A stretch of 64,000 bases of DNA from NCBI GenBank assembly GCA_043813915.1, contig JBDRKO010000001.1:835-64834 (forward strand). The letters run 5' to 3'. The notes below the pieces were generated by a model that saw only the letters and a program-made list of their open reading frames with translations, ran no database searches and had not been told where the DNA came from. Position numbers and translations under genes: made by a program. This stretch comes from Candidatus Omnitrophota bacterium (GTDB lineage: Bacteria > Omnitrophota > Gorgyraeia > Tantalellales > Tantalellaceae). Shown one piece after another: positions 2,883 to 61,560 of this stretch. Numbering within the stretch: position 1 is the stretch's first letter; each line of letters starts with the position of its first letter.

Positions 2883-3695
2883 TTATCCTTCTAATTTATC
2901 CGGCAACGGATCGGTTAAGCCGGCGCTAAGATATGCGCCCGCTCCCAACTCATGTAAACGCGACAATATGGTCTTTGCGCTGTTTTCTTTAGCGATCAGG
3001 CCGAGCTCCTCTCTGATGCGGCGCCGCTCGGTTCTCGCCAACATACCGGCCAGTATCGCTTGCCGTATGAGCGCTTCTGTCCTTTCTTCTATGCGGAACG
3101 ATAATAACCTGCCCTCGAATCTTGCGGCCCTGAATATCCTCGTGGGGTCGTCGAAAAAACTTTTGTCGTGCAACGCGCGTATCCGCCCGTTCTTAATATC
3201 TTCCGCGCCGTCAAAAAGGTCAAGCACGTTCCCGCGATCAGCCGCGTTCATGCTCACCGCGATAGCGTTGACCGTAAAATCCCTGCGCGCCAGGTCCTCA
3301 CGGATAGTTCCGGGCCGCACTTCCGGCATGGCCGCCGGGGACGCATAGCGCTCTTTTCTGGTGCCGGCGAGATCTATCCTCACCTTATCATCCGGGAACA
3401 GCCTTCCCGACAGCGTCTCCGATCCTTTCACCAGAAGAGTTGCCGTTCCGAATTTTTTATATACGGTCAGCTTGCCCGGTATTTTTTTATTTATCTTCCC
3501 GGAAAATTTTATAGCGTCCCCTTCGACCGCGACATCAATATCCGCGTTTTCTTTTTCCAGAAAGAGATCGCGTACCGTTCCCCCCACCAGAAAGACCCGC
3601 TCTCCCGCGGCATCAGCAGCGTCACCTATGATTTTTAAGAACCCTTTGGTCTCAACCGAAAGTATCCTTTCGATAAGATCGCTGATATTGGTCAT
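2883..3695 (-). CDS. tRNA nucleotidyltransferase / poly(A) polymerase family protein (short, head domain only)
   Basis: 270 aa; LVGGTVRDLFL...DIDV nucleotidyltransferase motif of CCA-adding/PcnB family. Confidence 0.7.
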   Translation of the reverse strand: MTNISDLIERILSVETKGFLKIIGDAADAAGERVFLVGGTVRDLFLEKENADIDVAVEGDAIKFSGKINKKIPGKLTVYKKFGTATLLVKGSETLSGRLFPDDKVRIDLAGTRKERYASPAAMPEVRPGTIREDLARRDFTVNAIAVSMNAADRGNVLDLFDGAEDIKNGRIRALHDKSFFDDPTRIFRAARFEGRLLSFRIEERTEALIRQAILAGMLARTERRRIREELGLIAKENSAKTILSRLHELGAGAYLSAGLTDPLPDKLEG

Positions 3696-3746
3696 AATAG
3701 AACCTGTGTTTATTATAGCGTATAGAGTATAGCGTATAGAGAAAAA

Positions 3747-3830
3747 GTTTGTCGAGTTTGTAGTGTTTGTAGCGTTTGTTGAGTTAGCTCGACTGACGCT
3801 CTACTCTTTTAAACTGCCGTCTACGAACTC
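3747..3830. repeat. Family A palindromic repeat (GAGTTTGTAG x n ... CTACGAACTC), copy A1
   Basis: Left half tandem gagtttgtag-tgtttgtag-cgtttgtt, right half ctacgaactc; same architecture at 10831-10932, 34746-34842, 35096-35195. Confidence 0.7.
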
Positions 3831-4019
3831 CGAATTTTTGTACCGTTTGCTAATTTAGCTTTGAAAGTGTTCTGCTTCGCTCTTTAATAAGCTAGCGCCA
3901 TGGTAGAGCTTCGCAGGAACTAACCTCTTCGAAGCTGTGCACGAAAGTTGCACAGCGAAGAAGGGTGACCCCATTTTTGTGTTTAAAGGTGGCCCCTATG
4001 TATCCTAAACGCACCAGTT

Positions 4020-4097
4020 ACCAGACCAAAAAGTTTAAAAGTCTAAATGTCGAAAGTCAAAAGGTCAAAAGTCTGTTGAGTAAAATTTCCCGGAAAT
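4020..4097. repeat. Family C partial copy (AGTCTAAATGTCGAAAGTCAAAAGGTCAAAAGTC ... GTTGAGTAAA)
   Basis: Direct ~10-bp subrepeats shared with 29741-29830, 49893-50092, 51938-52135. Confidence 0.6.
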
Positions 4098-4200
4098 CTT
4101 TAATAGGGCTGCAAACGGGACACTTCCCGTTGGGAAATGTCCCCATATCCTGGGTTAGCGGGCATTGGTTCTCTTCTGCGCTTCACTAATAAAGCATCGA
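4098..4200. repeat. Family B element (GGGACACTTCCC-gtt-GGGAAATGTCCC hairpin plus conserved flanks), solo copy
   Basis: Shares start tctttaatagg, hairpin, ccatatcctggg...ttggttct...ttcactaat with copies at 20343-20457(inv), 21213-21338, 24640-24775, 61470-61560. Confidence 0.7.
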
Positions 4201-4204
4201 TCAC

Positions 4205-4250
4205 TACAACCCAAAAAACTCCACAAACTCCACAAACCCTACAAACTCTA
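4205..4250. repeat. Family A half-element (ctccacaaactccacaaaccctacaaactc)
   Basis: Reverse-complement form of the gagtttgtag subrepeat array; abuts Family B copy. Confidence 0.55.
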
Positions 4251-4263
4251 TTTCCTTCCCCTC

Positions 4264-5160
4264 TCAAGCACGCGGATGGAACTTTTCGTGCGTCTTTCTT
4301 AACCTGTCTTTATTCACATGCGTGTATATCTGCGTGGTGGAAATATCAGCGTGCCCCAGCATTTCCTGAACGCCCATCAGGTCCGCCCCGCCCTCCAATA
4401 GATGTGTCGCGAAAGAATGCCGCAAAGTATGCGGGGTTATATGTTTTAATATACCAGCCGCTTTCGCGTATTTCTTTATTATTTTCCATAAACTCTGGCG
4501 GGACAATTGTCTTCCGAATTTGGAAAGAAAAAGATGCTCGTCCTGCCGGCCTTTCAGGAGCTTTTCTCTGCCGTGTTCGAGATATTTCACCAAGGCTTTC
4601 TTCGCTTCCCGTCCCATAGGTACAATGCGTTCTTTGCCGCCCTTTCCGGAACATTTGACAAAATCGGACTCTAGATTAACACTGCCTCGTTTGAGCCCGC
4701 TGACCTCGGATACCCTGAGTCCCGAGGCATACATGATCTCCAGCACGGCTTTGTCCCTCAGATCCGCGGGTCTTTTCCCTTCGGGAGCCTCTATCAGGAG
4801 TTCGACTTCTTCTTTGCTCAGAACGTCCGGAATGCGTTTCCATGTCCTGGGTGTCTCCACCAAAGCGGCTACGTTCTCTTCGACTATACGTTCCGCCACA
4901 AGAAATTTACAGAATGTCTTTATGGCCGCGAGGTTCCTGGCAATGGTAGTAGCGGAGAGGTCTTTGTCCTTGAGCTGCATAAGGAACGCTACGAGGTCTT
5001 CCCGGCGCAATTTTACTATATCCGTATTTATGTCTTTAAGATATTGTGAAAGTTTTTTAAGATCACGGGTATATGCCTGGACAGTATTGCGGCTTACGGC
5101 TCTTTCCGCTTCCAGAAAGAAAACGAATTGTTCTATGGATTCTTCCATTTTCATGTTCAA
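4264..5160 (-). CDS. xerD: Site-specific tyrosine recombinase XerD/XerC family
   Basis: 298 aa; N-terminal SAM-like domain, C-terminal R..HxxR..Y catalytic residues (LRHSFATHLLEGGADL...GHADISTTQIYTHV). Confidence 0.85.
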   Translation of the reverse strand: MNMKMEESIEQFVFFLEAERAVSRNTVQAYTRDLKKLSQYLKDINTDIVKLRREDLVAFLMQLKDKDLSATTIARNLAAIKTFCKFLVAERIVEENVAALVETPRTWKRIPDVLSKEEVELLIEAPEGKRPADLRDKAVLEIMYASGLRVSEVSGLKRGSVNLESDFVKCSGKGGKERIVPMGREAKKALVKYLEHGREKLLKGRQDEHLFLSKFGRQLSRQSLWKIIKKYAKAAGILKHITPHTLRHSFATHLLEGGADLMGVQEMLGHADISTTQIYTHVNKDRLRKTHEKFHPRA

Positions 5161-10213: not shown

Positions 10214-10344
10214 GTTTTACCTGCCTGTTAAATCTTGCTTAGCGCATAGAGCATGGCGCATAGCGCATAATAAGTTCAAAAAATACATTCGTCCCCGAAC
10301 AGATCCCATCCGGGATAGATGTTATCCCGGATGGGATCTGGGGG

Positions 10345-10830: not shown

Positions 10831-10932
10831 TGAGTTTATAGGGTTTATCGCGTTTGTAGCGTTTGTCGGGTTTTCTTATCCGACGGAAACTCCATTGTCT
10901 ACTACGAACTATGAACTGCCAACTACGAACTC
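10831..10932. repeat. Family A palindromic repeat, copy A2 (inside rib operon, between ribBA and ribH)
   Basis: gagtttatagggtttatcgcgtttgtagcgtttgtcggg ... ctactacgaactatgaactgccaactacgaactc. Confidence 0.7.
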
Positions 10933-12143: not shown

Positions 12144-12164
12144 GCCTTTCCTTATGTTCCTGTC

Positions 12165-12315
12165 ACTTCACATATACCCCGGCCTGAAGGCCGGGGTTTG
12201 TTTGCCCTGCCTGTCCCGAGCTTGTCGAGGGGAGCGAAGCCGAAGGGTTTACAATTGATCCTGTTTTTCCTTGCTCTGAAACACGGGGCTTAGACGGGGC
12301 GAACGGGTTAAAAAA
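12165..12315. repeat. Family D structured repeat, copy D1 (in ribBA leader, downstream of riboswitch terminator)
   Basis: ataCCCCGGCCtgaaGGCCGGGGtttgtttGCCCTGCCTGTCCCGAGC...GAGGGGAGC...GGGGCGAACGGG; homologous copies 37150-37345 and 44400-44545. Confidence 0.7.
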
Positions 12316-12500: not shown

Positions 12501-12699
12501 TACCCCGAAGTTCTTAATGATTTTAACATACATTGACCATAAGTCAATACGTTATCTCTTGCTTGTCTAACCGTCATTGCTCTCTACGATCGCGACCCGA
12601 TTCCGTCATTGCAAGAAGGCGCCGAGAACGTAATGTTCGAGGTGTGCCGAGACCTCCGGGCGAGGCCCGCAGACCGACGCGGCAATCTCTTTCGAATTA

Positions 12700-12885
12700 T
12701 CAAAACTGCCTGTATACGCTCACTTCGTTCGCGAGATCCTTCGTCTCATCCTCACTTGGCTCGGCTTCGCTCGGGATAAATTCGACCATATAACTTGCGT
12801 TCACTTCGTTCCGCAAGAGATCCCTCGCTTCGCTCGGGATAAATTCGACCATATAACTTGCGTTCACTTCGTTCCGCAAGTTATG
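12700..12885. repeat. Tandem 63-bp direct repeat (about 2.5 copies) immediately downstream of groEL
   Basis: cttcgctcgggataaattcgaccatataacttgcgttcacttcgttccgcaag appears identically at about 12766-12818 and 12829-12881, with a diverged partial copy 12709-12765. Confidence 0.8.
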
Positions 12886-19775: not shown

Positions 19776-19857
19776 ACATTCCCCCTATGAAACACCTAAT
19801 TAACAAAAAACCCGGCTTTAATATCAGCCGGGTTTTTTAATTCCTGATAACGGGTAA
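19776..19857. repeat. Direct repeat copy 1 (includes bidirectional terminator AAAAAACCCGGC...GCCGGGTTTTTT)
   Basis: About 75 bp identical to 20074-20155 apart from 1-2 nt; stem-loop 19811-19832 flanked by A6/T6. Confidence 0.8.
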
Positions 19858-20073: not shown

Positions 20074-20155
20074 GTTTCCCCCCATGAAACACCTGATTAA
20101 CAAAAAACCCGGCTTTAATATCAGCCGGGTTTTTTAATTCCTGGTAGCGGGGGAC
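20074..20155. repeat. Direct repeat copy 2; its hairpin (20102-20135) is the terminator just 3' of tRNA-Met
   Basis: atgaaacacctgattaacaaaaaacccggctttaatatcagccgggttttttaattcctg. Confidence 0.8.
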
Positions 20156-20218: not shown

Positions 20219-20342
20219 AAGTTAAGCTTTTTATGAGCCATCATTATATTCTAAAGCCTCACCCTTGTCAATGCAAGGGTACGGAAGATCTCAATCAGCA
20301 CAGAGCATAAAGTTTGCCGAGTTTGTAGGGCTTGTTGGGCTG

Positions 20343-20457
20343 TATTAACTGATGTTTCATTAGTGAATGCTGAAATAGAAAAAGAACCAACGTCCACATG
20401 CCCAGGATATGGGGACATTTCCCAACGGGAAGTGTCCCGTTTGCGGCTCTATTAAGT
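20343..20457. repeat. Family B element, left inverted copy flanking TauE gene
   Basis: About 88% identical to reverse complement of 21225-21338 over about 105 bp; contains GGGACATTTCCC-aac-GGGAAGTGTCCC. Confidence 0.8.
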
Positions 20458-21210
20458 TCACAAAAAAAGCAATTTGACGGCCAAGAGCACCGCGACGGTA
20501 ATGAAAGCTTTTCTCACCCAAACTGTTCCTTTCCTAAGAGCCAGTTTTGATCCCGAGAACGCGCCTATGGATATCGAGATCGACAATGGCAGCGCTATGC
20601 GCATGTCAATAAGATCGCTGCCGAAAAAGACCATACATGCCGCCAGGGACGAGAACGCGTTAAGTATCTTGGTTATCACCGCTGTCTGAAGAAAATCAAG
20701 GCCGAGCCCCAGTATCAGCACATAGCTCAGCAGCATCATGTATCCGCCGCTGAAAAAGCCGCCGTATACGCCCAGCATGAATACCAGAATGCCAACGGAC
20801 GACAACGTAAGCACAGATGCTTTGCCCGTTCTTTCTTTTATTCCAAGGTCTTTGTTCAGAAAAAATATGGGGATGAAAACGAATATTATGACCGCCAGGA
20901 ATTTCTCAAGCATATGTTCGTTAAAAGCGATCAGGTATCGGGCGCCTATCAAGGACCCGATAGCGGTCAAAACTACCGAAACGGCGATGAACCCGGTATA
21001 TTTTGGCTCTATCTTCTCACGCAATCCGACTGCGCCGCTGACGCTTAAGAATATCAGCGTGAACATGTTAGTCGCGATAGCGGCTTTGCCGCTCATACCC
21101 AGAAAAATAAGCAGGGGTATCGTCACCAAGGACGCGCCTCCGACGGAAACGCTAATGATCCCCGCTAAATAATACGCCACTGTTGCTATAGCTATGCTGT
21201 GAAGTTCCAT
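20458..21210 (-). CDS. Sulfite exporter TauE/SafE family permease
   Basis: About 250 aa, 7-8 TM, duplicated 4-TM halves with G-rich motifs; start taken at MELHSIAI (the 25-aa N-terminal extension in the track ORF runs into the repeat). Confidence 0.75.
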   Translation of the reverse strand: MELHSIAIATVAYYLAGIISVSVGGASLVTIPLLIFLGMSGKAAIATNMFTLIFLSVSGAVGLREKIEPKYTGFIAVSVVLTAIGSLIGARYLIAFNEHMLEKFLAVIIFVFIPIFFLNKDLGIKERTGKASVLTLSSVGILVFMLGVYGGFFSGGYMMLLSYVLILGLGLDFLQTAVITKILNAFSSLAACMVFFGSDLIDMRIALPLSISISIGAFSGSKLALRKGTVWVRKAFITVAVLLAVKLLFL

Positions 21211-21212
21211 GT

Positions 21213-21338
21213 TTAAAGGACCGTCTTTAATAGGTCGGCAAAGGGGACACTTCCCTTCGGGAGGATGTCCCCATATCCTGGGCATGCGGACGTTGGTTCT
21301 TTTACAATCTCACCATTCACTAATGGAACATCAGTCAA
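21213..21338. repeat. Family B element, right inverted copy flanking TauE gene
   Basis: tctttaataggtcggcaaaGGGGACACTTCCCttcgGGGAGGATGTCCCCatatcctgggcatgcggacgttggttctttt...ttcactaatgg. Confidence 0.8.
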
Positions 21339-21359
21339 TATAACGCTATGCGCTGTGAC

Positions 21360-24578: not shown

Positions 24579-24639
24579 ATGACCTCCTGCTTCTCTATAT
24601 TGCTTAACGGTTAGTCTTATTTTATATTTTTAATTATAG

Positions 24640-24775
24640 CGTCTTTAGAAGGATAGTTACAGGGAAATCTTAGGCAGCGAACGGGACACTTCCCTCCCCC
24701 CGTTATTTGGTTTGCTAATAAAAGAAAATCACGGGGGGAGGGAGGATGTCCCCACCTGCTGGGTAGTCTGGTATT
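24640..24775. repeat. Family B element variant carrying an inserted C6/G6 hairpin
   Basis: gcgtctttagaagg...GGGACACTTCCC-tcccccc...gggggg-AGGGAGGATGTCCCC...ctgggtagtctgg. Confidence 0.6.
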
Positions 24776-25850
24776 ACTCTAATGCTTCTTCGATCCACGC
24801 GCCGCCCGCGACTATCTCGTCCTCGTAGAAAACAGCCGCTTGTCCGGGAGCGGGCGCGAATTGCGGTTCGGAGAATTCTATAATGGCTTCGTCCCTACCC
24901 TTCGGGACGACCCGGGCCTCGGCCTTTTTGGAATTATATCTTATTCTCGTACCGAAAGAACGCGGCCTGTTCAGTTCATCCATAATTAACCAGTTGAAAC
25001 CTTTGACGCGCAATCTGGACTTCATAGCGTTCTCTCTACCCGAAACCGTTACAGCATTGTTCTTCGCGTCGATTTTTGTTACATATAGCGCTTCATGGGA
25101 CCCTATCCCCAACCCGTGCCGCTGCCCGACCGTGTATCCCGCGATCCCTTTATGCTCGGCTATCTTTTTCCCGGCCGCATTGACGATATCTCCGGGAACG
25201 AAAATATCCGGCGCGGTCTTTTCTAAATATTTTTTATAACCGCCTGCACCCGACGCGAAACAGATGTCCTGGCTGGGTTTTTTTTCAGCGGACATGAAAT
25301 TTTCGCCGCGGGCGATCTCCACTACTTCCTTTTTGGTAAGCTCCCCTAGAGGAAAGTCCAGGTACATAAGTTCCTCTTTGGGAATATCGTAAAGAAAATA
25401 CGACTGGTCGCCCTGTCCGTTAACGGCTTCGGCCAGAAAACACTTTCCGCCGCGCTTTATTATGCGGGCGTAATGGCCCGTAGCAATGCGCTGGGCGCCC
25501 ATTTCCCTGGCTTTTTTTAGGAGACAACCGAACTTTATTTTGCTGTTGCAGTATACGCAGGGGCTGGGAGTCCTGCCCCGGGCATATTCTTCCACGAAAT
25601 ATTTTTTGATCTTTTCGGCGAACTCTTTGGAAAGATCGACCACATAATAGGGTATCCCCATGTCTTCCGCGGCGCTGCGCGCGTATTGTATAGAGTCAAG
25701 CGAACAGCACATTTTATCGTCGCCGCCGCCGCATTCTTCTTTAGGCCAGGTCTTTATAGTAACGCCGATAACCTCACGGCCCTCTCTTTTCATAAGAAAA
25801 GCCGCGACACTCGAGTCTACCCCTCCTGACATAGCAGCTACTACTCTCAA
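24774..25850 (-). CDS. mnmA: tRNA-specific 2-thiouridylase (tRNA 2-thiouridine(34) synthase)
   Basis: 358 aa; SGGVDSSV PP-loop, catalytic cysteines. Confidence 0.9.
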   Translation of the reverse strand: MRVVAAMSGGVDSSVAAFLMKREGREVIGVTIKTWPKEECGGGDDKMCCSLDSIQYARSAAEDMGIPYYVVDLSKEFAEKIKKYFVEEYARGRTPSPCVYCNSKIKFGCLLKKAREMGAQRIATGHYARIIKRGGKCFLAEAVNGQGDQSYFLYDIPKEELMYLDFPLGELTKKEVVEIARGENFMSAEKKPSQDICFASGAGGYKKYLEKTAPDIFVPGDIVNAAGKKIAEHKGIAGYTVGQRHGLGIGSHEALYVTKIDAKNNAVTVSGRENAMKSRLRVKGFNWLIMDELNRPRSFGTRIRYNSKKAEARVVPKGRDEAIIEFSEPQFAPAPGQAAVFYEDEIVAGGAWIEEALE

Positions 25851-29740: not shown

Positions 29741-29830
29741 AAAAAAGGTCTGCTGAGTAAAGTTACCTGAAACCAGTTACCGGTTGCCAGACCAAAACAG
29801 TCTAAAAGTCGAAGGTCTAAAGGTCTAAAG
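29741..29830. repeat. Family C element, short copy
   Basis: ctgagtaaagttacctgaaaccagttaccggtt...agtctaaaagtcgaaggtctaaaggtctaaagacccgttgagc. Confidence 0.65.
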
Positions 29831-30697
29831 ACCCGTTGAGCTCAAATGCTGCGCTTTATGTGCCCGGAAAACATTTCTCATCAAGATGGATACCGTTACA
29901 GGCCCCACTCCTCCGGGTACGGGAGTTATGACCGACGCCTTTTTCTCAACTTCTGAAAAGGCCACGTCCCCCACTATCTTGTCCTCCACCATGTTTATGC
30001 CGACATCTATGACAACTGCCCCTTCGGAGACCCACTCACCTTTGATCATTTCGGGACATCCGACCGCCACTACCAGCACATCAGCCCTTCCGACATGCTC
30101 GGATAAATAACCTTTTTCTGATGTAGCTATATTGCACACCGTTGTCGTAGCCATCTCGTTCAGCATCAGGAGACTTAAAGGTTTTCCGACTACCGCGGAC
30201 CCTCCGACTATTACCACTTCTTTACCGTAAAGGTCTATCTTTTCCGCGCTTAATATCTTCATTACAGCGCCCGGAGTACATGCTACAAGATCGGCTTCAT
30301 GACGCAATATTTTGCCCAGGTTGTAAGGATGCAGCCCTTCGGCATCTTTTCGGGGATCGATCGCGGCTATTATCCTATCATGGTCAATGTTTTCCGGTAC
30401 GGGTTTCTGTACGATTATCGCGGTGACGAAGATATCCTTATTGAGTTTTTCTATTTCCCGGATCAGATCTTCTTGTGACAGATCGGCTTCAAGCCGTATA
30501 TCCTCAAAATCTATACCGACTTTTTCCGCGGTACGTTTCTGCATATTAACGTATATTTCGGCGTCTTTGGGGCTACCAAGGGTCAACGACGCAAGTTTCG
30601 GAACGCGTCCTACGGCCGCGGAAATTTCCTTGATACGTTTTTTCACGGATTCGTTGATCTCTGCCGCGATCTTTTTCCCGTCAATGATCTTTGCCAT
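29825..30697 (-). CDS. folD: Bifunctional methylenetetrahydrofolate dehydrogenase/methenyltetrahydrofolate cyclohydrolase
   Basis: 290 aa; FolD signatures (TPGAVMKIL, VVIVGGSAVVGKPLSLLM). Confidence 0.9.
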   Translation of the reverse strand: MAKIIDGKKIAAEINESVKKRIKEISAAVGRVPKLASLTLGSPKDAEIYVNMQKRTAEKVGIDFEDIRLEADLSQEDLIREIEKLNKDIFVTAIIVQKPVPENIDHDRIIAAIDPRKDAEGLHPYNLGKILRHEADLVACTPGAVMKILSAEKIDLYGKEVVIVGGSAVVGKPLSLLMLNEMATTTVCNIATSEKGYLSEHVGRADVLVVAVGCPEMIKGEWVSEGAVVIDVGINMVEDKIVGDVAFSEVEKKASVITPVPGGVGPVTVSILMRNVFRAHKAQHLSSTGL

Positions 30698-34745: not shown

Positions 34746-34842
34746 AGTTCGTAGTAGGTAGTTCATAGTTCGTAGCAGGACCGATCCTGCACTCCAAATG
34801 GCACACTCCGACTACGAACTACGAACACTGAACTACCAACTA
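34746..34842. repeat. Family A palindromic repeat, copy A3 (between rpsP and trmD, where rimM normally sits)
   Basis: agttcgtagtaggtagttcatagttcgtagc ... gactacgaactacgaacactgaactaccaactag. Confidence 0.7.
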
Positions 34843-34843
34843 G

Positions 34844-35095: not shown

Positions 35096-35195
35096 TTTGA
35101 GTTTATAGTGTTCATAGAGTTCCTCGAGTTTGTTGGGTTATATTGCCCGCTGCTCTATTTCTCCCAACTACGAACTATGAACTACAAACTGCTAT
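35096..35195. repeat. Family A palindromic repeat, copy A4
   Basis: tgagtttatagtgttcatagagttcctcgagtttgttggg ... ccaactacgaactatgaactacaaactgc. Confidence 0.7.
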
Positions 35196-37149: not shown

Positions 37150-37345
37150 TCACCGATACCCCCGGGGCTTGCTTGCCCTGCCTGCCCCGCCTGTCCCGAG
37201 CAAAGCCGAGGGGAGCTTGTCGAGGGGAGCGAAGCCGAAGGGTTCCAAATTGATCCTGCAATGTCCCGAGCAAAGCGAGGGGAGCCCCGGCTATTTTCCC
37301 TCCGCTAGAGCACGAGCCTCCACCGGGGCGAACGGGTCAAAGAAC
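37150..37345. repeat. Family D structured repeat, copy D2 (between prfA and prmC, with internal duplication of the CCCGAGC...GAGGGGAGC block)
   Basis: caccgatacccccggggcttgcttGCCCTGCCTGCCCCGCCTGTCCCGAGC...GGGGCGAACGGG. Confidence 0.7.
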
Positions 37346-44399: not shown

Positions 44400-44545
44400 A
44401 TAGACCCGTCAATTCACCGATACCCCGGTCTAAAGACCGGGGATTGCTTGCCCTGCCTGCCCCGCCTGTCCCGAGCACCGCGAGGGGAGCCCCGGCTATT
44501 TCCACCACGCTAAAGCACGGGGCTTCGCCGGGGCGAATGGGTCAA
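44400..44545. repeat. Family D structured repeat, copy D3 (between mgtC and bactofilin gene)
   Basis: caccgataCCCCGGTCtaaaGACCGGGGattgcttGCCCTGCCTGCCCCGCCTGTCCCGAGC...GGGGCGAATGGG; hairpin carries compensatory changes relative to D1. Confidence 0.7.
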
Positions 44546-49838: not shown

Positions 49839-49892
49839 TCGTATCTACCTTCCGGAGTTCGCGTTCGTCCGGCTGTTTTGTAATCACATAGT

Positions 49893-50092
49893 CAAACAGT
49901 CGAAATGTCGAAAGTCTAAAGGTCCGTTAAGTAAAGTTACCAGAAACCGGTTACCAGTTACCAGAGTCTTAACCTTAGTGCTACAGTCAATCCCGCTAAG
50001 AGAAACCAGTTTCCAGAACCTGTTACCTAAAAAAACTTAGATCGCTGGTTGCTGGTAACAGGCAACTGGTTACTTTTCCCTTTTCACCAAAT
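49893..50092. repeat. Family C element, left arm of about 200-bp inverted repeat bracketing gatC-gatA
   Basis: Reverse complement aligns at about 93% identity with 51938-52135 (ggtatttggt...aaccagttgcctgttaccagcaaccagcgatctaagttttttt...ggtaactggtaaccggtttctggtaactttactta...). Confidence 0.85.
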
Positions 50093-50111
50093 ACCAAAGA
50101 CTAAATACCGT

Positions 50112-51937: not shown

Positions 51938-52135
51938 GGTATTTGGTATTCAGCATTTGGTGCAAGGGGAAAAGCAACCAGTTGCCTGTTACCAGCAACC
52001 AGCGATCTAAGTTTTTTTCAGGTAACAGGTTCTGAGAACTGGTTTCTCTTAGCGGGATTGACTGTAGCTCTAGGGTTAAGACTCTGGTAACTGGTAACCG
52101 GTTTCTGGTAACTTTACTTAGCGGACCTTTAGATT
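51938..52135. repeat. Family C element, right arm of inverted repeat bracketing gatC-gatA
   Basis: See 49893-50092. Confidence 0.85.
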
Positions 52136-52365
52136 TTCGCCGTTTATACTATTGCCCTTCACTCTCTACGATCGATCCTATATTTTTCGTAAGATTCCAA
52201 GATTGACCGCCGAAGGCGGTCAGCCGCGCCGTGGACGTTCACTCCGATAGGAACGGACACAAAAGACTGCTTGAAAAGCAGTCTTTATAGGACAGCTATT
52301 TAGTCCCGGGCGCGGACTACTTATTTTTTCATCCTCTTCTCCGTCTATATCGCAGGACGCATATC

Positions 52366-52571
52366 GGTAAAACCGTATAAAGTTCAAAGGGTCCCGTTCG
52401 CGAATTTTAGTTTTTTATGTAGCTTTTGAAAGTGTCAGGCGTTAAATATGTTTGAACCCCGCTGTTTTGCAGATCAAAACAACGGGGTGAGTTTATTTAA
52501 CGCCCTTTCAAAAGCTAGATCAAAAACGTTAAAAAATTCGCGGGGAAAGAACTTTATACGGTTTTACGGTC
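52366..52571. repeat. About 206-bp imperfect palindrome (foldback/MITE-like) with central nested hairpin
   Basis: Arms cggtaaaaccgtataaagttc...tagcttttgaaag...gttaaata / tatttaacgcc...ctttcaaaagcta...gaactttatacggttttacgg; centre CCCCGCTGTTTTG-cagatc-AAAACAACGGGG. Confidence 0.75.
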
Positions 52572-60188: not shown

Positions 60189-60541
60189 TTGCCCACAAAA
60201 TGTTCTGAAGGAGCATCCGACCACAGTCTTTCAAGACCGTAAAAATCTCTTGCCCCTTGGGAGAATACATGTACTATAACGTCTTCGCAATCCAATAAGG
60301 TCCAATATGTCCCTTTCTTTCCTTCTATATGGAGCGGCGCGATCCTCTCTTTTGCCAGAGACTTCTGCACTTCCTTGGAAATAGCGTTTATCTGGCGGGA
60401 AGATCCGCCCGAAACGAGAACATACCAATCACAAACAGAGGATATCCCCCTCATGTCCATAAGAGTTATATCCTCCCCCTTTTTATCATATGCTATCTGG
60501 GCTATATGTCTTGCCTTATCGGAAGCTGTTACGTACTTCAC
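60158..60541 (-). CDS. rsfS: Ribosomal silencing factor RsfS (Iojap)
   Basis: 127 aa; DWYVLVSG...HVF motif. Confidence 0.8.
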   Translation of the reverse strand: MKYVTASDKARHIAQIAYDKKGEDITLMDMRGISSVCDWYVLVSGGSSRQINAISKEVQKSLAKERIAPLHIEGKKGTYWTLLDCEDVIVHVFSQGARDFYGLERLWSDAPSEHFVGKCLAQTLQKT

Positions 60542-60578
60542 TCTTGATCACGATCCCGCTTAGCGCAGTAAGTACCGA

Positions 60579-60722
60579 TCATTTACCCATTATCCTGTAC
60601 ATACCGGTGCCGCAATCGGGACATTTTCCTTTCATGGCCTTACGGCCGTTCTTCATCGTTACTTCCTGTGCGTCCTTCATCTCTTTTTTACCCTTACATT
60701 TTACACAATAAGCCTCTGCCAT
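60579..60722 (-). CDS. Small zinc-ribbon protein (47 aa, two CxxC pairs; DUF5679-like)
   Basis: Own translation MAEAYCVKCKGKKEMKDAQEVTMKNGRKAMKGKCPDCGTGMYRIMGK; below the ORF-track cutoff. Confidence 0.45.
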   Translation of the reverse strand: MAEAYCVKCKGKKEMKDAQEVTMKNGRKAMKGKCPDCGTGMYRIMGK

Positions 60723-60839
60723 AAAGAACCCCCTCCTTTGTTGTTAACATACTTGGATAAGTGTATCATACAGTCCATAAATGTCAAGCATAAGTAATAA
60801 ACACAAAACTTAGATATCGGGACGTATATACTGTTTTAT

Positions 60840-61440: not shown

Positions 61441-61560
61441 TTTATTGGGTTTGTAAGGTTTAGCTAAGATAAAGAGCCGATACCCGCATACCAAGTCAGG
61501 TTGGGACATTTCCCGAACGTAGGGAGGGAAGTGTCCCCTTTGCTGCTATCTTAAACAATA
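61441..61560. repeat. Composite: Family A half-element (gagttcgcgagttttattgggtttgtaagg) plus Family B element (GGGACATTTCCC-gaacgtaggga-GGGAAGTGTCCCC)
   Basis: Same A-half plus B juxtaposition as at 20311-20457. Confidence 0.6.

What the first reader, a model, noticed from the sequence alone, without database searches (positions are those of the whole stretch)
3700..4262. Mosaic intergenic 'repeat depot' downstream of xerD containing modules of three repeat families (A, C, B, then an A-half)
The 560-bp gap between the CCA-nucleotidyltransferase gene and xerD is almost entirely repeats. It holds a TATAGCGTATAGAG tandem, a full Family A palindrome, a Family C direct-repeat block (AGTCTAAATGTCGAAAGTCAAAAGGTCAAAAGTC), a Family B hairpin element and a terminal Family A half-array (ctccacaaactccacaaaccctacaaactc). 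The same A-half plus B juxtaposition recurs at 20311-20457 and 61441-61560, suggesting A and B are parts of a larger composite element. A tyrosine recombinase gene directly adjacent is suggestive, although this protein looks like housekeeping XerD.
Basis: seen in the sequence. Interest (0 to 1): 0.55.

Follow-up and report, generated by a model that had tools for sequence, protein, structure and literature searches.

The report
Mosaic pile-up of intergenic repeat modules
The 568-bp gap between two housekeeping genes of an uncultivated Omnitrophota bacterium is a patchwork of at least five families of short, hairpin-forming repeat modules that fill this genome's intergenic spaces, much like the REP/BIME and MITE repeats of well-studied bacteria. 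The patchwork is real and differs between near-identical strains, but nothing ties it to the neighbouring XerD recombinase.

Summary
Window 3696-4263 lies between a PolyA_pol/CCA-family gene and xerD, both on the minus strand, in a Candidatus Omnitrophota MAG. It consists almost entirely of dispersed repeat modules:
- a 14-nt tandem carrying -10-like boxes
- an A/D fold-back palindrome
- module F, which is unique in the window but 91% identical to a copy in another metagenome
- a C-family block
- a composite made of the B hairpin plus an A array

The A-array+B composite recurs at 20302-20455 and 61441-61555 and in metagenome Ga0180007, so A and B do form one unit. C is independent of them.

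In-window repeats cover 32% of intergenic bases against 0.12% of coding bases. All other assemblies of this species break inside this gap. A 99.7%-identical strain carries different repeat content next to the downstream gene. In relatives the same gap ranges from 6 to 366 nt and holds other palindromes.

XerD is the housekeeping enzyme, with conserved synteny. None of the roughly 60 window ORFs scanned matched a transposase family.

Best reading: a BIME/BOX/MITE-like mosaic of non-autonomous palindromic repeats, probably acting as RNA hairpins between cistrons. The mobilising mechanism is unproven: I found no target-site duplications, no GTAG/CGTC tag and no partner enzyme. Interest is modest. 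These are undescribed families with unusual arms built of 7-9-nt arrays.

The parts
2883..3695 (-). Downstream gene: a 270-aa nucleotidyltransferase of the PolyA_pol/CCA family, first gene of a rbfA / DHH-family gene / truB / ribF cluster
   Evidence: Pfam PF01743, E = 7e-26. The following genes were identified.
3696..3713 (-). Short leader of the downstream gene. The TATAAT box sits at 3706-3711 on the minus strand, 10 nt upstream of the ATG.
   Evidence: Read directly from the sequence. CGCTATAAT occurs at 3712-3720 on the minus strand, and again at 24633-24641 upstream of another gene. Promoter function is inferred.
3714..3741 (.). Perfect 14-nt tandem duplication, TATAGCGTATAGAG x2. On the gene strand it reads CTCTATACGCTATA x2 and creates the -10-like hexamers TATACT and TATAAT.
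   Evidence: The promoter scan finds TCGACA-18-TATACT on the minus strand. A related GCGCATAG-type array lies at 10240-10269 and next to the B copy at 21322-21345.
3746..3835 (+). A/D fold-back palindrome. It comprises the A array of about four 9-mers (3746-3785), a small central hairpin, and a partial heptamer D array (~3818-3832).
   Evidence: Aligns with 10833-10922 and 35100-35188 at 65-67% over ~90 nt (E ~ 1e-6). Folds at -32 kcal/mol, z = -4.1. TRF finds period 9.
3838..3996 (-). Module F: 159 nt with two hairpins. It is single-copy in the window but dispersed elsewhere.
   Evidence: 91% identical over 162 nt to L065:9121-9282 (Ga0180007), where it sits between a 208-aa ORF and a 102-aa ORF that I did not annotate. 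Consensus fold, with no covariation information from two sequences. No Rfam match at E <= 5.
4013..4095 (+). C-family block. It comprises the end of a GTTACCA heptamer module (4013-4026), an octamer array of AAAGTCNA (4029-4074), and the start of the next module (TGTTGAGTAAAATTTCC).
   Evidence: Matches 29779-29847 (75%, E = 1e-7) and 49885-49946 (71%). TRF finds period 8. The full C element of 216 nt lies at 49895-50109 and, inverted, at 51938-52153 (91%).
4097..4176 (-). B core: TTTAATAG / GCAAAC flank, hairpin (stem 4117-4128 / 4132-4143, loop GTT) and a conserved 3' part ending in GGTTC. On the minus strand the stem is fully paired with one G.T wobble.
   Evidence: An nhmmer profile finds five full copies in the window and ten in Ga0180007 loci. 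The stem is invariant in 14 copies. The hairpin dominates local folds.
4177..4250 (-). Linker (CACTAAT...) plus an inverted A array (4216-4248). Together with the B core this forms one composite element, 4097-4250.
   Evidence: One alignment covers the B core, the linker and most of the array: 4100-4237 against 20455-20312, 79% over 144 nt, E = 1.7e-27. See also the alignment and the same layout in L079.
4264..5160 (-). Upstream gene xerD, a housekeeping tyrosine recombinase. It is not part of the repeat system.
   Evidence: Pfam Phage_integrase plus SAM_1. NCBI names it XerD, and there are hundreds of Omnitrophota orthologues. Synteny is conserved in L052, L088 and L089.

Best explanation
The gap is an accumulation site for several independent families of small, non-coding, hairpin-forming dispersed repeats. 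These repeats populate the intergenic spaces of this Omnitrophota lineage and play the role that REP/BIME, BOX or MITE elements play in other bacteria.

Shown:
- Module order from the downstream gene to xerD: a tandemly duplicated -10 region, an A/D fold-back palindrome, module F, a C-family block, and a composite of the B hairpin plus an A array.
- Each module has other copies at non-homologous loci, in both orientations, always between genes.
- The content of the gap turns over quickly between strains and species.

Inferred:
- The modules spread at the DNA level, by an unidentified trans-acting enzyme and/or by recombination between copies.
- They persist where they do no harm, filling the space from a stop codon to the next promoter or Shine-Dalgarno site.
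- Once transcribed they act as intercistronic or 3' hairpins that could block exonucleases, pause or terminate transcription, or uncouple neighbouring cistrons.
- Some modules may supply promoter hexamers. The C array read on the gene strand is a run of TTGAC(C/T) boxes. The A array and the tandem give TCGACA-18-TATACT.

XerD next door is coincidental.
For: Repeats are real and intergenic:
- BLAST E-values down to 1e-27.
- 32% of intergenic against 0.12% of coding bases are covered by in-window repeats.
- All period 7-9 arrays with at least 3 copies lie between genes.

Modularity:
- B carries an A array at three loci but a GCGCATAG-type array at 21322-21345, and GTGTTAAG-type arrays in Ga0180007.
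- C pieces occur in permuted arrangements.

Both orientations: the B strand relative to flanking genes is 9 sense and 5 antisense.

Neighbours are housekeeping genes here and in Ga0180007, with no transposase adjacent.

Turnover:
- A 99.7%-identical strain (GCA_018817765.1, also ENA and Logan contigs) has C-family sequence directly upstream of the downstream gene, where the window has F + A/D + the tandem.
- 9 of its 11 mismatches over 3.7 kb cluster in 3682-3713.
- The orthologous gap is 6 nt in L089, 295 nt in L088 and 366 nt in Ca. Aadella gelida, each with different arrays or palindromes.
- Orthologous ribBA-ribH and tRNA-Met/TauE gaps carry different elements in Aadella: a B-like hairpin and a GGTTNTA-armed palindrome.

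Assembly: every short-read contig of this species ends inside an A array, the B hairpin or a C/E repeat.

Hairpin potential: z = -3 to -5.9 for individual elements and -4.25 for the whole gap.

Placement: A/D palindromes fill the stop-to-Shine-Dalgarno spacers of ribBA-ribH and aroA-rpsP. REPs are likewise reported mostly downstream of coding regions, between co-directional and convergent ORFs (PMC3733652).
Against: - I found no target-site duplications or sharp element ends.
- There is no clean filled-versus-empty site. The strain difference looks like replacement of the whole gap rather than a single insertion.
- None of the roughly 60 window ORFs scanned against Pfam matched a transposase or RAYT family, and the rest of the genome could not be searched.
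- The B stem lacks the GTAG/CGTC tag typical of REPs (PMC3733652).
- The B stem sequence, including its G.T wobble, is invariant in 14 copies. A similar hairpin sits in a different genus. That fits selection for a sequence-specific partner at least as well as selfish spread.
- The relationship of the Ga0180007 organism to the window's organism is unknown, so its copies may be same-species paralogues.
- Nothing here shows transcription or any RNA-level effect.
Confidence: 0.6

Rival explanations
1. Host-selected cis-acting RNA elements. B (and perhaps F) would be a conserved RNA hairpin recognised by a specific RNA-binding protein or RNase. The flanking low-complexity arrays would serve as unstructured spacers or protein landing pads. 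The copies would exist because many operons use the same regulatory or processing signal, not because the DNA is mobile.
For: The stem sequence is invariant, with a conserved G.U-compatible wobble on one strand. A B-like hairpin lies immediately upstream of the Shine-Dalgarno site and ATG of ribH in Aadella, and upstream of several genes in Ga0180007. Loop length varies from 3 to 49 nt while the stem is kept, and long loops form stem extensions. CA-rich A arrays lie directly upstream of the Shine-Dalgarno sites of ribH and rpsP.
Against: There is no strand bias relative to transcription (9 sense, 5 antisense). In the antisense copies the RNA would carry an A.C mismatch instead of the wobble. 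There are no compensatory changes, because the stem never varies. No Rfam family matches. Positions relative to stops and starts are not fixed. Flanking genes are functionally unrelated.
Confidence: 0.2
2. Protein-binding arrays. The 7-9-nt periodic arrays (A, C, D, GTTACCA and others) would be iterated binding sites for a DNA-binding protein, such as a nucleoid-associated protein, a transposase binding subterminal repeats, or RNA polymerase sigma via repeated TTGAC boxes. The gap would then be a regulatory or architectural hub.
For: Periodicity is retained although copies are only 65-85% identical. Arrays at the same position differ in sequence between relatives but keep a GAGTT-like core, as in L088 right after the xerD stop. 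The C array on the gene strand gives TTGACC/TTGACT-17-TAGACT/TAAACT promoter-like hits. It lies upstream of gene starts at gatB, at the strain-2 downstream gene and at L079:2651.
Against: Periods of 7, 8 and 9 nt do not share a helical phase. The arrays occur in both orientations. No candidate binding protein was identified. Slippage in tolerated non-coding DNA explains periodic degenerate arrays without invoking function. The promoter matches are consensus hits only.
Confidence: 0.1
3. Invertible DNA switch. The 32-nt inverted A arrays (3754-3785 and 4217-4248) would bound a 431-bp segment flipped by the adjacent tyrosine recombinase to switch expression of the downstream operon.
For: The inverted repeats are 88% complementary over 32 nt with 431 nt between them, next to a tyrosine recombinase gene. 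All short-read assemblies break at these arrays.
Against: The two arrays belong to two different dispersed elements that also occur elsewhere. XerD is the conserved housekeeping enzyme, with the same neighbours in relatives that lack these repeats. One further assembly that reads past the xerD-proximal A array (L051, to window 4140) has the window orientation, and L087 stops inside the array and is uninformative. Contig breaks also occur at repeats far from any recombinase.
Confidence: 0.03
4. Assembly artefact. The internal order of modules in the gap would be a chimeric join through repeats in the MAG contig.
For: Four independent short-read assemblies fail to cross the gap. The strain-2 flank differs from the window.
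Against: The gene-level join xerD to PolyA_pol is confirmed by synteny in three relatives. The xerD-proximal 120 nt (A array into the B hairpin) is confirmed by L051. Each module is independently attested elsewhere, so the repeats themselves are real whatever their order.
Confidence: 0.05

Closest known systems
REP sequences and bacterial interspersed mosaic elements (BIMEs) / REPINs of Proteobacteria (PMC2817692, PMC3733652, PMC3116915)
   Same: Short imperfect palindromes at high density, strictly extragenic. They lie mostly downstream of coding regions and between co-directional genes. They combine with other short motifs into mosaic clusters, are species- or strain-variable, and are plausibly transcribed as RNA hairpins.
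   Different: The B stem has no unpaired GTAG/CGTC tag. There is no regular alternation of inverted REP pairs in the cluster. No RAYT was seen. The partner modules are 7-9-nt periodic arrays and larger fold-back palindromes rather than the short BIME linker motifs.
BOX elements of Streptococcus pneumoniae (boxA-boxB(n)-boxC); from my own knowledge, not tested here
   Same: Modular intergenic repeats in which a central module varies in copy number. They form stable hairpins and sit near gene starts and ends with effects on expression.
   Different: No sequence relationship is expected. Here there are many interchangeable array types rather than three fixed boxes. The phylum is different.
MITEs such as Correia/NEMIS, ERIC and RUP (reviewed in PMC3184786, PMC10969869), and the minisatellite-bearing MITE of Porphyromonas gingivalis (PMC4596501)
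   Same: Elements of 100-250 nt with inverted arms, dispersed in intergenic DNA. They can carry promoters, nest into each other and break assemblies. One known MITE contains an internal minisatellite.
   Different: I found no target-site duplication, no defined terminal inverted repeat shared with an insertion sequence, and no clean empty site. The arms themselves are built from short tandem arrays.
Short tandemly repeated repetitive (STRR) heptamer sequences of heterocystous cyanobacteria; from my own knowledge
   Same: Intergenic tandem arrays of 7-nt units in several sequence families within one genome.
   Different: The arrays here are short (3-6 units) and degenerate, with periods of 7, 8 and 9. 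They are typically paired in inverted orientation or attached to a conserved hairpin.

Membership tests
REP / BIME / REPIN | Short (20-40 bp) imperfect palindrome in many extragenic copies | tested here: met
   The minimal B hairpin is 27-28 nt. There are 5 full copies in 64 kb, all intergenic, and 10 more in Ga0180007 loci.
REP / BIME / REPIN | Unpaired GTAG or CGTC tetranucleotide at one foot of the stem (PMC3733652) | tested here: not met
   The flanks of the B stem are ..GATAT/..CAGGT on one side and (C/G)TTTGC on the other in all 14 copies. GTAG occurs only inside A/D array units or in some loops.
REP / BIME / REPIN | REPs paired in inverted orientation at short, regular spacing (REPIN / BIME organisation) | tested here: not met
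   There is a single B per cluster. The only inverted B pair (20343-20418 and 21265-21340) is 846 nt apart and flanks the TauE gene.
REP / BIME / REPIN | Cognate RAYT (Y1 transposase) gene flanked by the REPs (PMC2817692) | tested here: inconclusive
   None of the roughly 60 window ORFs scanned against Pfam matched a transposase or RAYT family, and none of the ten ORFs scanned next to B copies in Ga0180007 did either. The rest of the genome could not be searched, because the genome-contig scan returned only chance hits.
MITE | Terminal inverted repeats | tested here: inconclusive
   The A/D palindrome and the C element have long imperfect inverted arms. The ends are not sharply defined, and copies differ in array length.
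MITE | Target-site duplication flanking each copy | tested here: not met
   By eye, the flanks of the aligned B-composite copies show no shared direct repeat beyond T/A-rich bases (TTTAAT.. / ..TAT). I did not inspect the flanks of the A/D copies for duplications.
MITE | Filled versus empty site between close strains | tested here: inconclusive
   A 99.7%-identical strain has different repeat content at the gene-proximal edge. The contig stops after 65 nt, and divergence clusters at the edge, which suggests replacement rather than a clean insertion.
MITE | Autonomous insertion sequence sharing the ends | not testable with these tools
   None is present in the window or in the fetched loci.
Invertible promoter switch (fimS-type) | Locus-specific inverted repeats plus a dedicated recombinase, with both orientations present in the population | tested here: not met
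   The inverted repeats are copies of a dispersed array. The recombinase is the syntenic housekeeping XerD. Only one orientation was seen where the junction could be read, in the window and in L051.
Any curated RNA family (Rfam 15) | Covariance-model match | tested here: not met
   There is no hit in 3600-4350 even at E <= 5. At gathering thresholds the whole window yields only an FMN riboswitch and two tRNAs.

The most novel reading that the evidence does not exclude
The B hairpin would be the recognition site of a lineage-specific protein of Omnitrophota. Its stem sequence is invariant and its wobble asymmetry is conserved, and related hairpins occur in relatives such as Ca. Aadella. The partner could be a Y1/HUH-type enzyme or an RNA-binding factor unlike RAYTs. 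The interchangeable 7-9-nt arrays would be functional cargo, such as portable -35 arrays, unstructured leaders or rut-like tracts, that the element distributes between operons. That would make this a new kind of modular, mobile regulatory cassette rather than junk repeats.
Probability: 0.12. Interest if true: 0.6.

Novelty: new variant of a known kind. Interest (0 to 1): 0.35.

Why it matters
Omnitrophota are uncultivated, and two full-text searches of the held paper library for Omnitrophota with palindromic or REP-type repeat terms returned no papers.

These repeats have practical consequences. They are where every short-read assembly of this species breaks, and they make intergenic regions differ between strains that are 99.7% identical in their genes. 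They are therefore useful as strain markers and a known hazard for MAG contiguity and binning.

Biologically, they show that BIME-like mosaics exist outside Proteobacteria without the usual GTAG tag. They offer a compact test case (the B hairpin) for finding a new hairpin-recognising enzyme or RNA-binding protein. If the arrays prove to carry promoter or leader function, they would be an example of repeats rewiring operon expression in a streamlined genome.

Tried and rejected
- **Genome-contig scan.** GCRAASGGGACACTTCCC gave 49 single hits in unrelated phyla, about the number expected by chance.
- **Metagenome scan with the hairpin pattern.** It gave 31 loci. Only the Ga0180007 contigs and the Aadella-like contigs are true relatives. 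One group of four contigs (Ga0056124: L054, L059, L066, L075) shares a longer repeat. The two I inspected (L054, L075) show no convincing prokaryotic ORFs, so I set the group aside as unrelated.
- **Viral contigs.** No B hairpin.
- **Rfam.** Nothing at gathering thresholds or at E <= 5.
- **Small ORF starting at the ATGTCCCC of B (MSPYPG...).** Rejected. Predicted lengths range from 6 to 57 aa and substitutions are not synonymous-biased. By eye, the 61462-61555 copy is also frame-shifted.
- **ORFs on the plus strand inside the gap.** 3965-4189 has no Pfam hit. 4137-4619 overlaps xerD in antisense and was not scanned.
- **Sigma-54 promoter reading of GTGTCCCC-TTTGCA.** Rejected by eye, because the spacing and the GG element do not fit.
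- **attC (integron) reading.** Rejected by eye. Orientations are mixed, the genes are housekeeping, there are no R'/R'' cores, and XerD is not IntI.
- **boxA-like GCTCTTTAATAA in F.** One match against 0.24 expected, and antisense to local transcription, so not significant.
- **Strain comparison with L051.** 99.3% identical over 8.7 kb, with no presence/absence of any element in the gaps it spans.
- **Literature search for Omnitrophota repeats.** Nothing found.
Full report
**Setting**

The window has 49% G+C, and nearly all of its roughly 60 genes lie on the minus strand. Exact protein look-ups place it on a 133-kb contig of an NCBI MAG named Candidatus Omnitrophota bacterium. Its XerD is MFH1411025.1 and the neighbouring gene is MFH1411024.1, locus tag ABIG55_00030.

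The finding's interval is the 568-nt gap 3696-4263. It lies downstream of xerD (4264-5160, minus strand; Phage_integrase plus SAM-like domains). It lies upstream of a 270-aa PolyA_pol head-domain protein (2883-3695, minus strand) that leads a cluster of rbfA, a DHH-family gene, truB and ribF.

- TATAGCGTATAGAG is duplicated perfectly at 3714-3741.
- An array of about four degenerate 9-mers (consensus AGTTTGTAG) occupies 3746-3785.
- An octamer array (AAAGTCNA) occupies 4029-4074.
- A 12-bp-stem hairpin, GGGACACTTCCC-GTT-GGGAAATGTCCC, sits at 4117-4143.
- An inverted 9-mer array lies at 4216-4248, 88% complementary over 32 nt to 3754-3785.
- The A 15-mer pattern has 11 matches in the window against 0.33 expected.
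- BLAST of the gap against the window finds copies of each part elsewhere. The strongest is 4100-4237 against the reverse complement of 20312-20455 (79% over 144 nt, E = 1.7e-27). 4099-4182 also matches the reverse complement of 61462-61555.

The recurring 'A-half plus B' juxtaposition is therefore correct.

**Anatomy**

Alignments resolve five modules.

1. *The tandem (3714-3741).* On the gene strand it reads CTCTATACGCTATA twice and ends in CGCTATAAT, 10 nt upstream of the ATG. The same CGCTATAAT lies upstream of another gene at 24633-24641. The promoter scan reports TCGACA-18-TATACT, with the -35 hexamer supplied by the last A unit. Promoter activity is inferred.

2. *The A/D palindrome (3746-3835).* It aligns with 10833-10922 and 35100-35188. 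It consists of the 9-mer A array, a small central hairpin and a heptamer 'D' array (ACTAYGA) that is roughly the complement of the A unit. It folds as a long imperfect hairpin (z = -3 to -4). At ribBA-ribH and aroA-rpsP this palindrome fills the whole spacer from stop codon to Shine-Dalgarno site.

3. *Module F (3838-3996).* It has no second copy in the window. It is 91% identical over 162 nt to L065:9121-9282 of metagenome Ga0180007, where it lies between a 208-aa ORF and a 102-aa ORF that I did not annotate. F is therefore a dispersed repeat too.

4. *The C block (4013-4095).* It is a fragment of the C family. The full form of this family is a ~216-nt element with heptamer (GTTACCA) inverted arms and terminal arrays. 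Two inverted copies (91% identical) flank the housekeeping gatCA genes, which shows that such inverted pairs are not transposon ends.

5. *The B composite (4097-4250).* It comprises the B core, a linker and an A array.

Thus the two inverted A arrays belong to two different elements, not to one 500-bp unit.

**The B element**

A profile built from the copies finds five full B elements in the window: 4108-4176, 20376-20448, 21236-21308, 24674-24785 and 61465-61547. It finds ten more in nine contigs of Ga0180007.

The conserved core is about 75 nt: GAACCAAYNYCCGCNKRCCCAGSAKRTGGGGACAT(Y)YTCCC - loop - GGGAAGTGTCCC(S)TTTGC. The stem, including a T.G wobble that is an A.C mismatch on the other strand, is identical in all 14 aligned copies. 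This is partly due to how the metagenome copies were selected, but it also holds for the five window copies, which were found by self-similarity. Loops are 3, 11 or about 45 nt, and the long ones extend the stem.

On the GAACCAA side B is joined to different arrays. These are A-type at three window loci and in L079, GCGCATAG-type at 21322-21345, and GTGTTAAG-type in several Ga0180007 copies. Where a gene abuts, there is no array. The arrays are therefore interchangeable modules.

The orientation of B relative to the co-directional flanking genes is 9 sense and 5 antisense. Neighbouring genes are housekeeping: SecA, a peptide chain release factor (PCRF/RF-1 domains), MutL, rubrerythrin, desulfoferrodoxin, TauE, CorA and others. 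A candidate small ORF starting in the hairpin is not conserved. No Rfam family matches. No viral contig carries the hairpin.

**Genome-wide flavour**

In-window repeats cover 32% of intergenic bases but 0.12% of coding bases. Several gaps are 80-100% repeat. All TRF arrays of period 7-9 with at least three units are intergenic, and many begin within a few bases of a stop codon. This gap is therefore not uniquely enriched. It is the one with the most families.

Within the window, A and B share a gap three times (five gaps each out of about 21). The decisive evidence for a composite is the continuous alignment, not that count. C is independent of A and B.

**Turnover**

A second strain is represented by GCA_018817765.1 and by ENA and Logan contigs. 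It is 99.3-99.7% identical in the flanking genes, yet none of its contigs crosses the gap:
- L087 ends in the xerD-proximal A array.
- L051 ends in the B hairpin.
- L084, L085 and L086 begin 65 nt upstream of the downstream gene.

Those 65 nt are not the window's sequence. They are C-family sequence, whose best match is window 49948-49913 (89%). In addition, 9 of the 11 mismatches over 3.7 kb fall in 3682-3713. The gap has therefore been remodelled or replaced between near-identical strains. No clean insertion with target duplication is visible.

In relatives with conserved synteny, the distance from xerD to the PolyA_pol gene varies widely:
- 6 nt in L089 (XerD 69% identical; the downstream gene there is an 888-aa DHH-CBS-PolyA_pol fusion).
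- 295 nt in L088 (71%). The gap starts with a GAGTTNN heptamer array right after the stop codon and contains a partial B-like hairpin.
- 366 nt in Ca. Aadella gelida (75%), with unrelated long palindromes.
- In L090 the contig ends in a 31-nt tandem repeat.

Other orthologous gaps also carry different elements. Aadella has a B-like hairpin (GGGGACATTCCCC...GGGAAGTGTCCCC) between ribBA and ribH, where the window has the A/D palindrome. Aadella also has a GGTTNTA-armed palindrome between TauE and the tRNA-Met promoter, where the window has the A+B composite.

**Interpretation**

The most economical reading is a mosaic of small non-autonomous palindromic repeats. In known systems this corresponds to REP/BIME clusters, BOX elements and nested MITEs. 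These repeats accumulate in tolerated intergenic space and turn over by an unidentified mobilising activity and/or by recombination among copies.

Their placement is typically from a stop codon up to the next promoter or Shine-Dalgarno site. Together with their strong hairpin potential, this makes RNA-level side effects likely: 3' stabilisers, pause or termination sites, or uncoupling of cistrons. That matches what has been proposed for REPs (PMC3733652, PMC2817692). This step is inferred, not shown.

Strict membership fails on several points. B has no GTAG/CGTC tag and no REPIN-like pairing. No RAYT, insertion sequence or target-site duplication was found. Whole-genome searches were not possible. 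I therefore file it as a new variant of the general kind, not as a REP or a MITE.

The invariant stem across copies, and its relatives in another genus, leave room for a sequence-specific partner protein or an RNA role. That is the main rival. The conserved periodicity of the otherwise diverged arrays leaves room for protein-binding or promoter functions.

An invertible switch driven by XerD is disfavoured. The inverted repeats are dispersed array copies. XerD is the syntenic housekeeping enzyme. Where the xerD-proximal junction can be read past the array (the window and L051), only one orientation is seen.

A mis-join inside the gap cannot be excluded without reads. It would not affect the reality of the modules.

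**Verdict**

The mosaic is real and the A+B composite is real. C is independent. The XerD link is unsupported.
- Novelty is modest: undescribed repeat families with unusual array-built arms in an uncultivated phylum, and an unknown mechanism of spread.

Noticed in passing
window 49895-50109 and 51938-52153: Two 216-nt C elements, 91% identical and in inverted orientation, bracket the housekeeping gatC-gatA genes. gatB lies immediately downstream. The Logan contig L001 ends inside the left copy.
   Followed up: partly
window 20343-20418 and 21265-21340: Inverted B copies (91% over 76 nt) flank the TauE-family gene. From comparison with Aadella, the true start of that gene appears to be the ATG near 21204, not 21285.
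   Followed up: partly
window 12159-12315, 37162-37340, 44405-44545; L065:598-783; L079:3831-4038: A further G+C-rich repeat family ('E': CCGGGG..TTGCCCTGCCTG..GGGGCGAACGGGT), 85-95% identical between loci. One copy lies just downstream of the FMN riboswitch and upstream of ribBA.
   Followed up: no
window 12617-12644 and 12764-12880: A 28-nt motif (..CTCGAACATTACGTTCTCGGCGCC..) is 100% identical in four Ga0180007 contigs. Next to it is a perfect 54-nt repeat with 63-nt spacing. The second strain differs here (12692-12766).
   Followed up: no
window 34746-34843: Very stable hairpin between rpsP and trmD, made of inverted heptamer D arrays (-47 kcal/mol, z = -5.9).
   Followed up: partly
window 19779-19854 and 20076-20151: A 76-nt direct repeat (95%) contains a bidirectional terminator-like hairpin (AAAAAACCCGGC..GCCGGGTTTTTT). 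The second copy overlaps the 3' end of tRNA-Met. It might be a remnant of a tRNA-targeted integration or a local duplication.
   Followed up: no
window 20236-20270 (minus strand): Near-consensus sigma-70-type promoter (TTGACA-17-TATAAT) upstream of tRNA-Met. It is conserved in Ca. Aadella (L057), while the element upstream of it differs.
   Followed up: partly
window 52367-52567: A ~200-nt self-complementary region (73%) in the 774-nt gap upstream of gatC.
   Followed up: no
window 3879-3890 (+): boxA-like GCTCTTTAATAA inside module F, antisense to local transcription. One match against 0.24 expected by chance, so not significant.
   Followed up: yes
window 60225-60839: This apparent 615-nt gap holds small genes missed by the 80-aa ORF cut-off: a ~46-aa zinc-ribbon ORF and an RsfS-like gene, both identified by eye. 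The weak 'B-like' match at 60608-60629 lies inside the zinc-ribbon ORF and is a chance match.
   Followed up: partly
L089:3892-6558 versus window 2883-3695 and 1498-2481: In a relative, the PolyA_pol domain is fused with DHH, DHHA1 and CBS domains in one 888-aa protein that starts 6 nt after xerD. In the window, the PolyA_pol protein (270 aa) and the DHH/DHHA1 protein are separate genes.
   Followed up: no
L090:3990-4205: In a relative (XerD 68% identical), the contig ends in at least six copies of a 31-nt tandem repeat (TGAAAGAAAGGGCAAATATTTCCCCCC..) downstream of xerD.
   Followed up: no
whole window: Essentially all genes (about 60) are on one strand. The Ga0180007 and Aadella contigs show the same co-orientation.
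   Followed up: no
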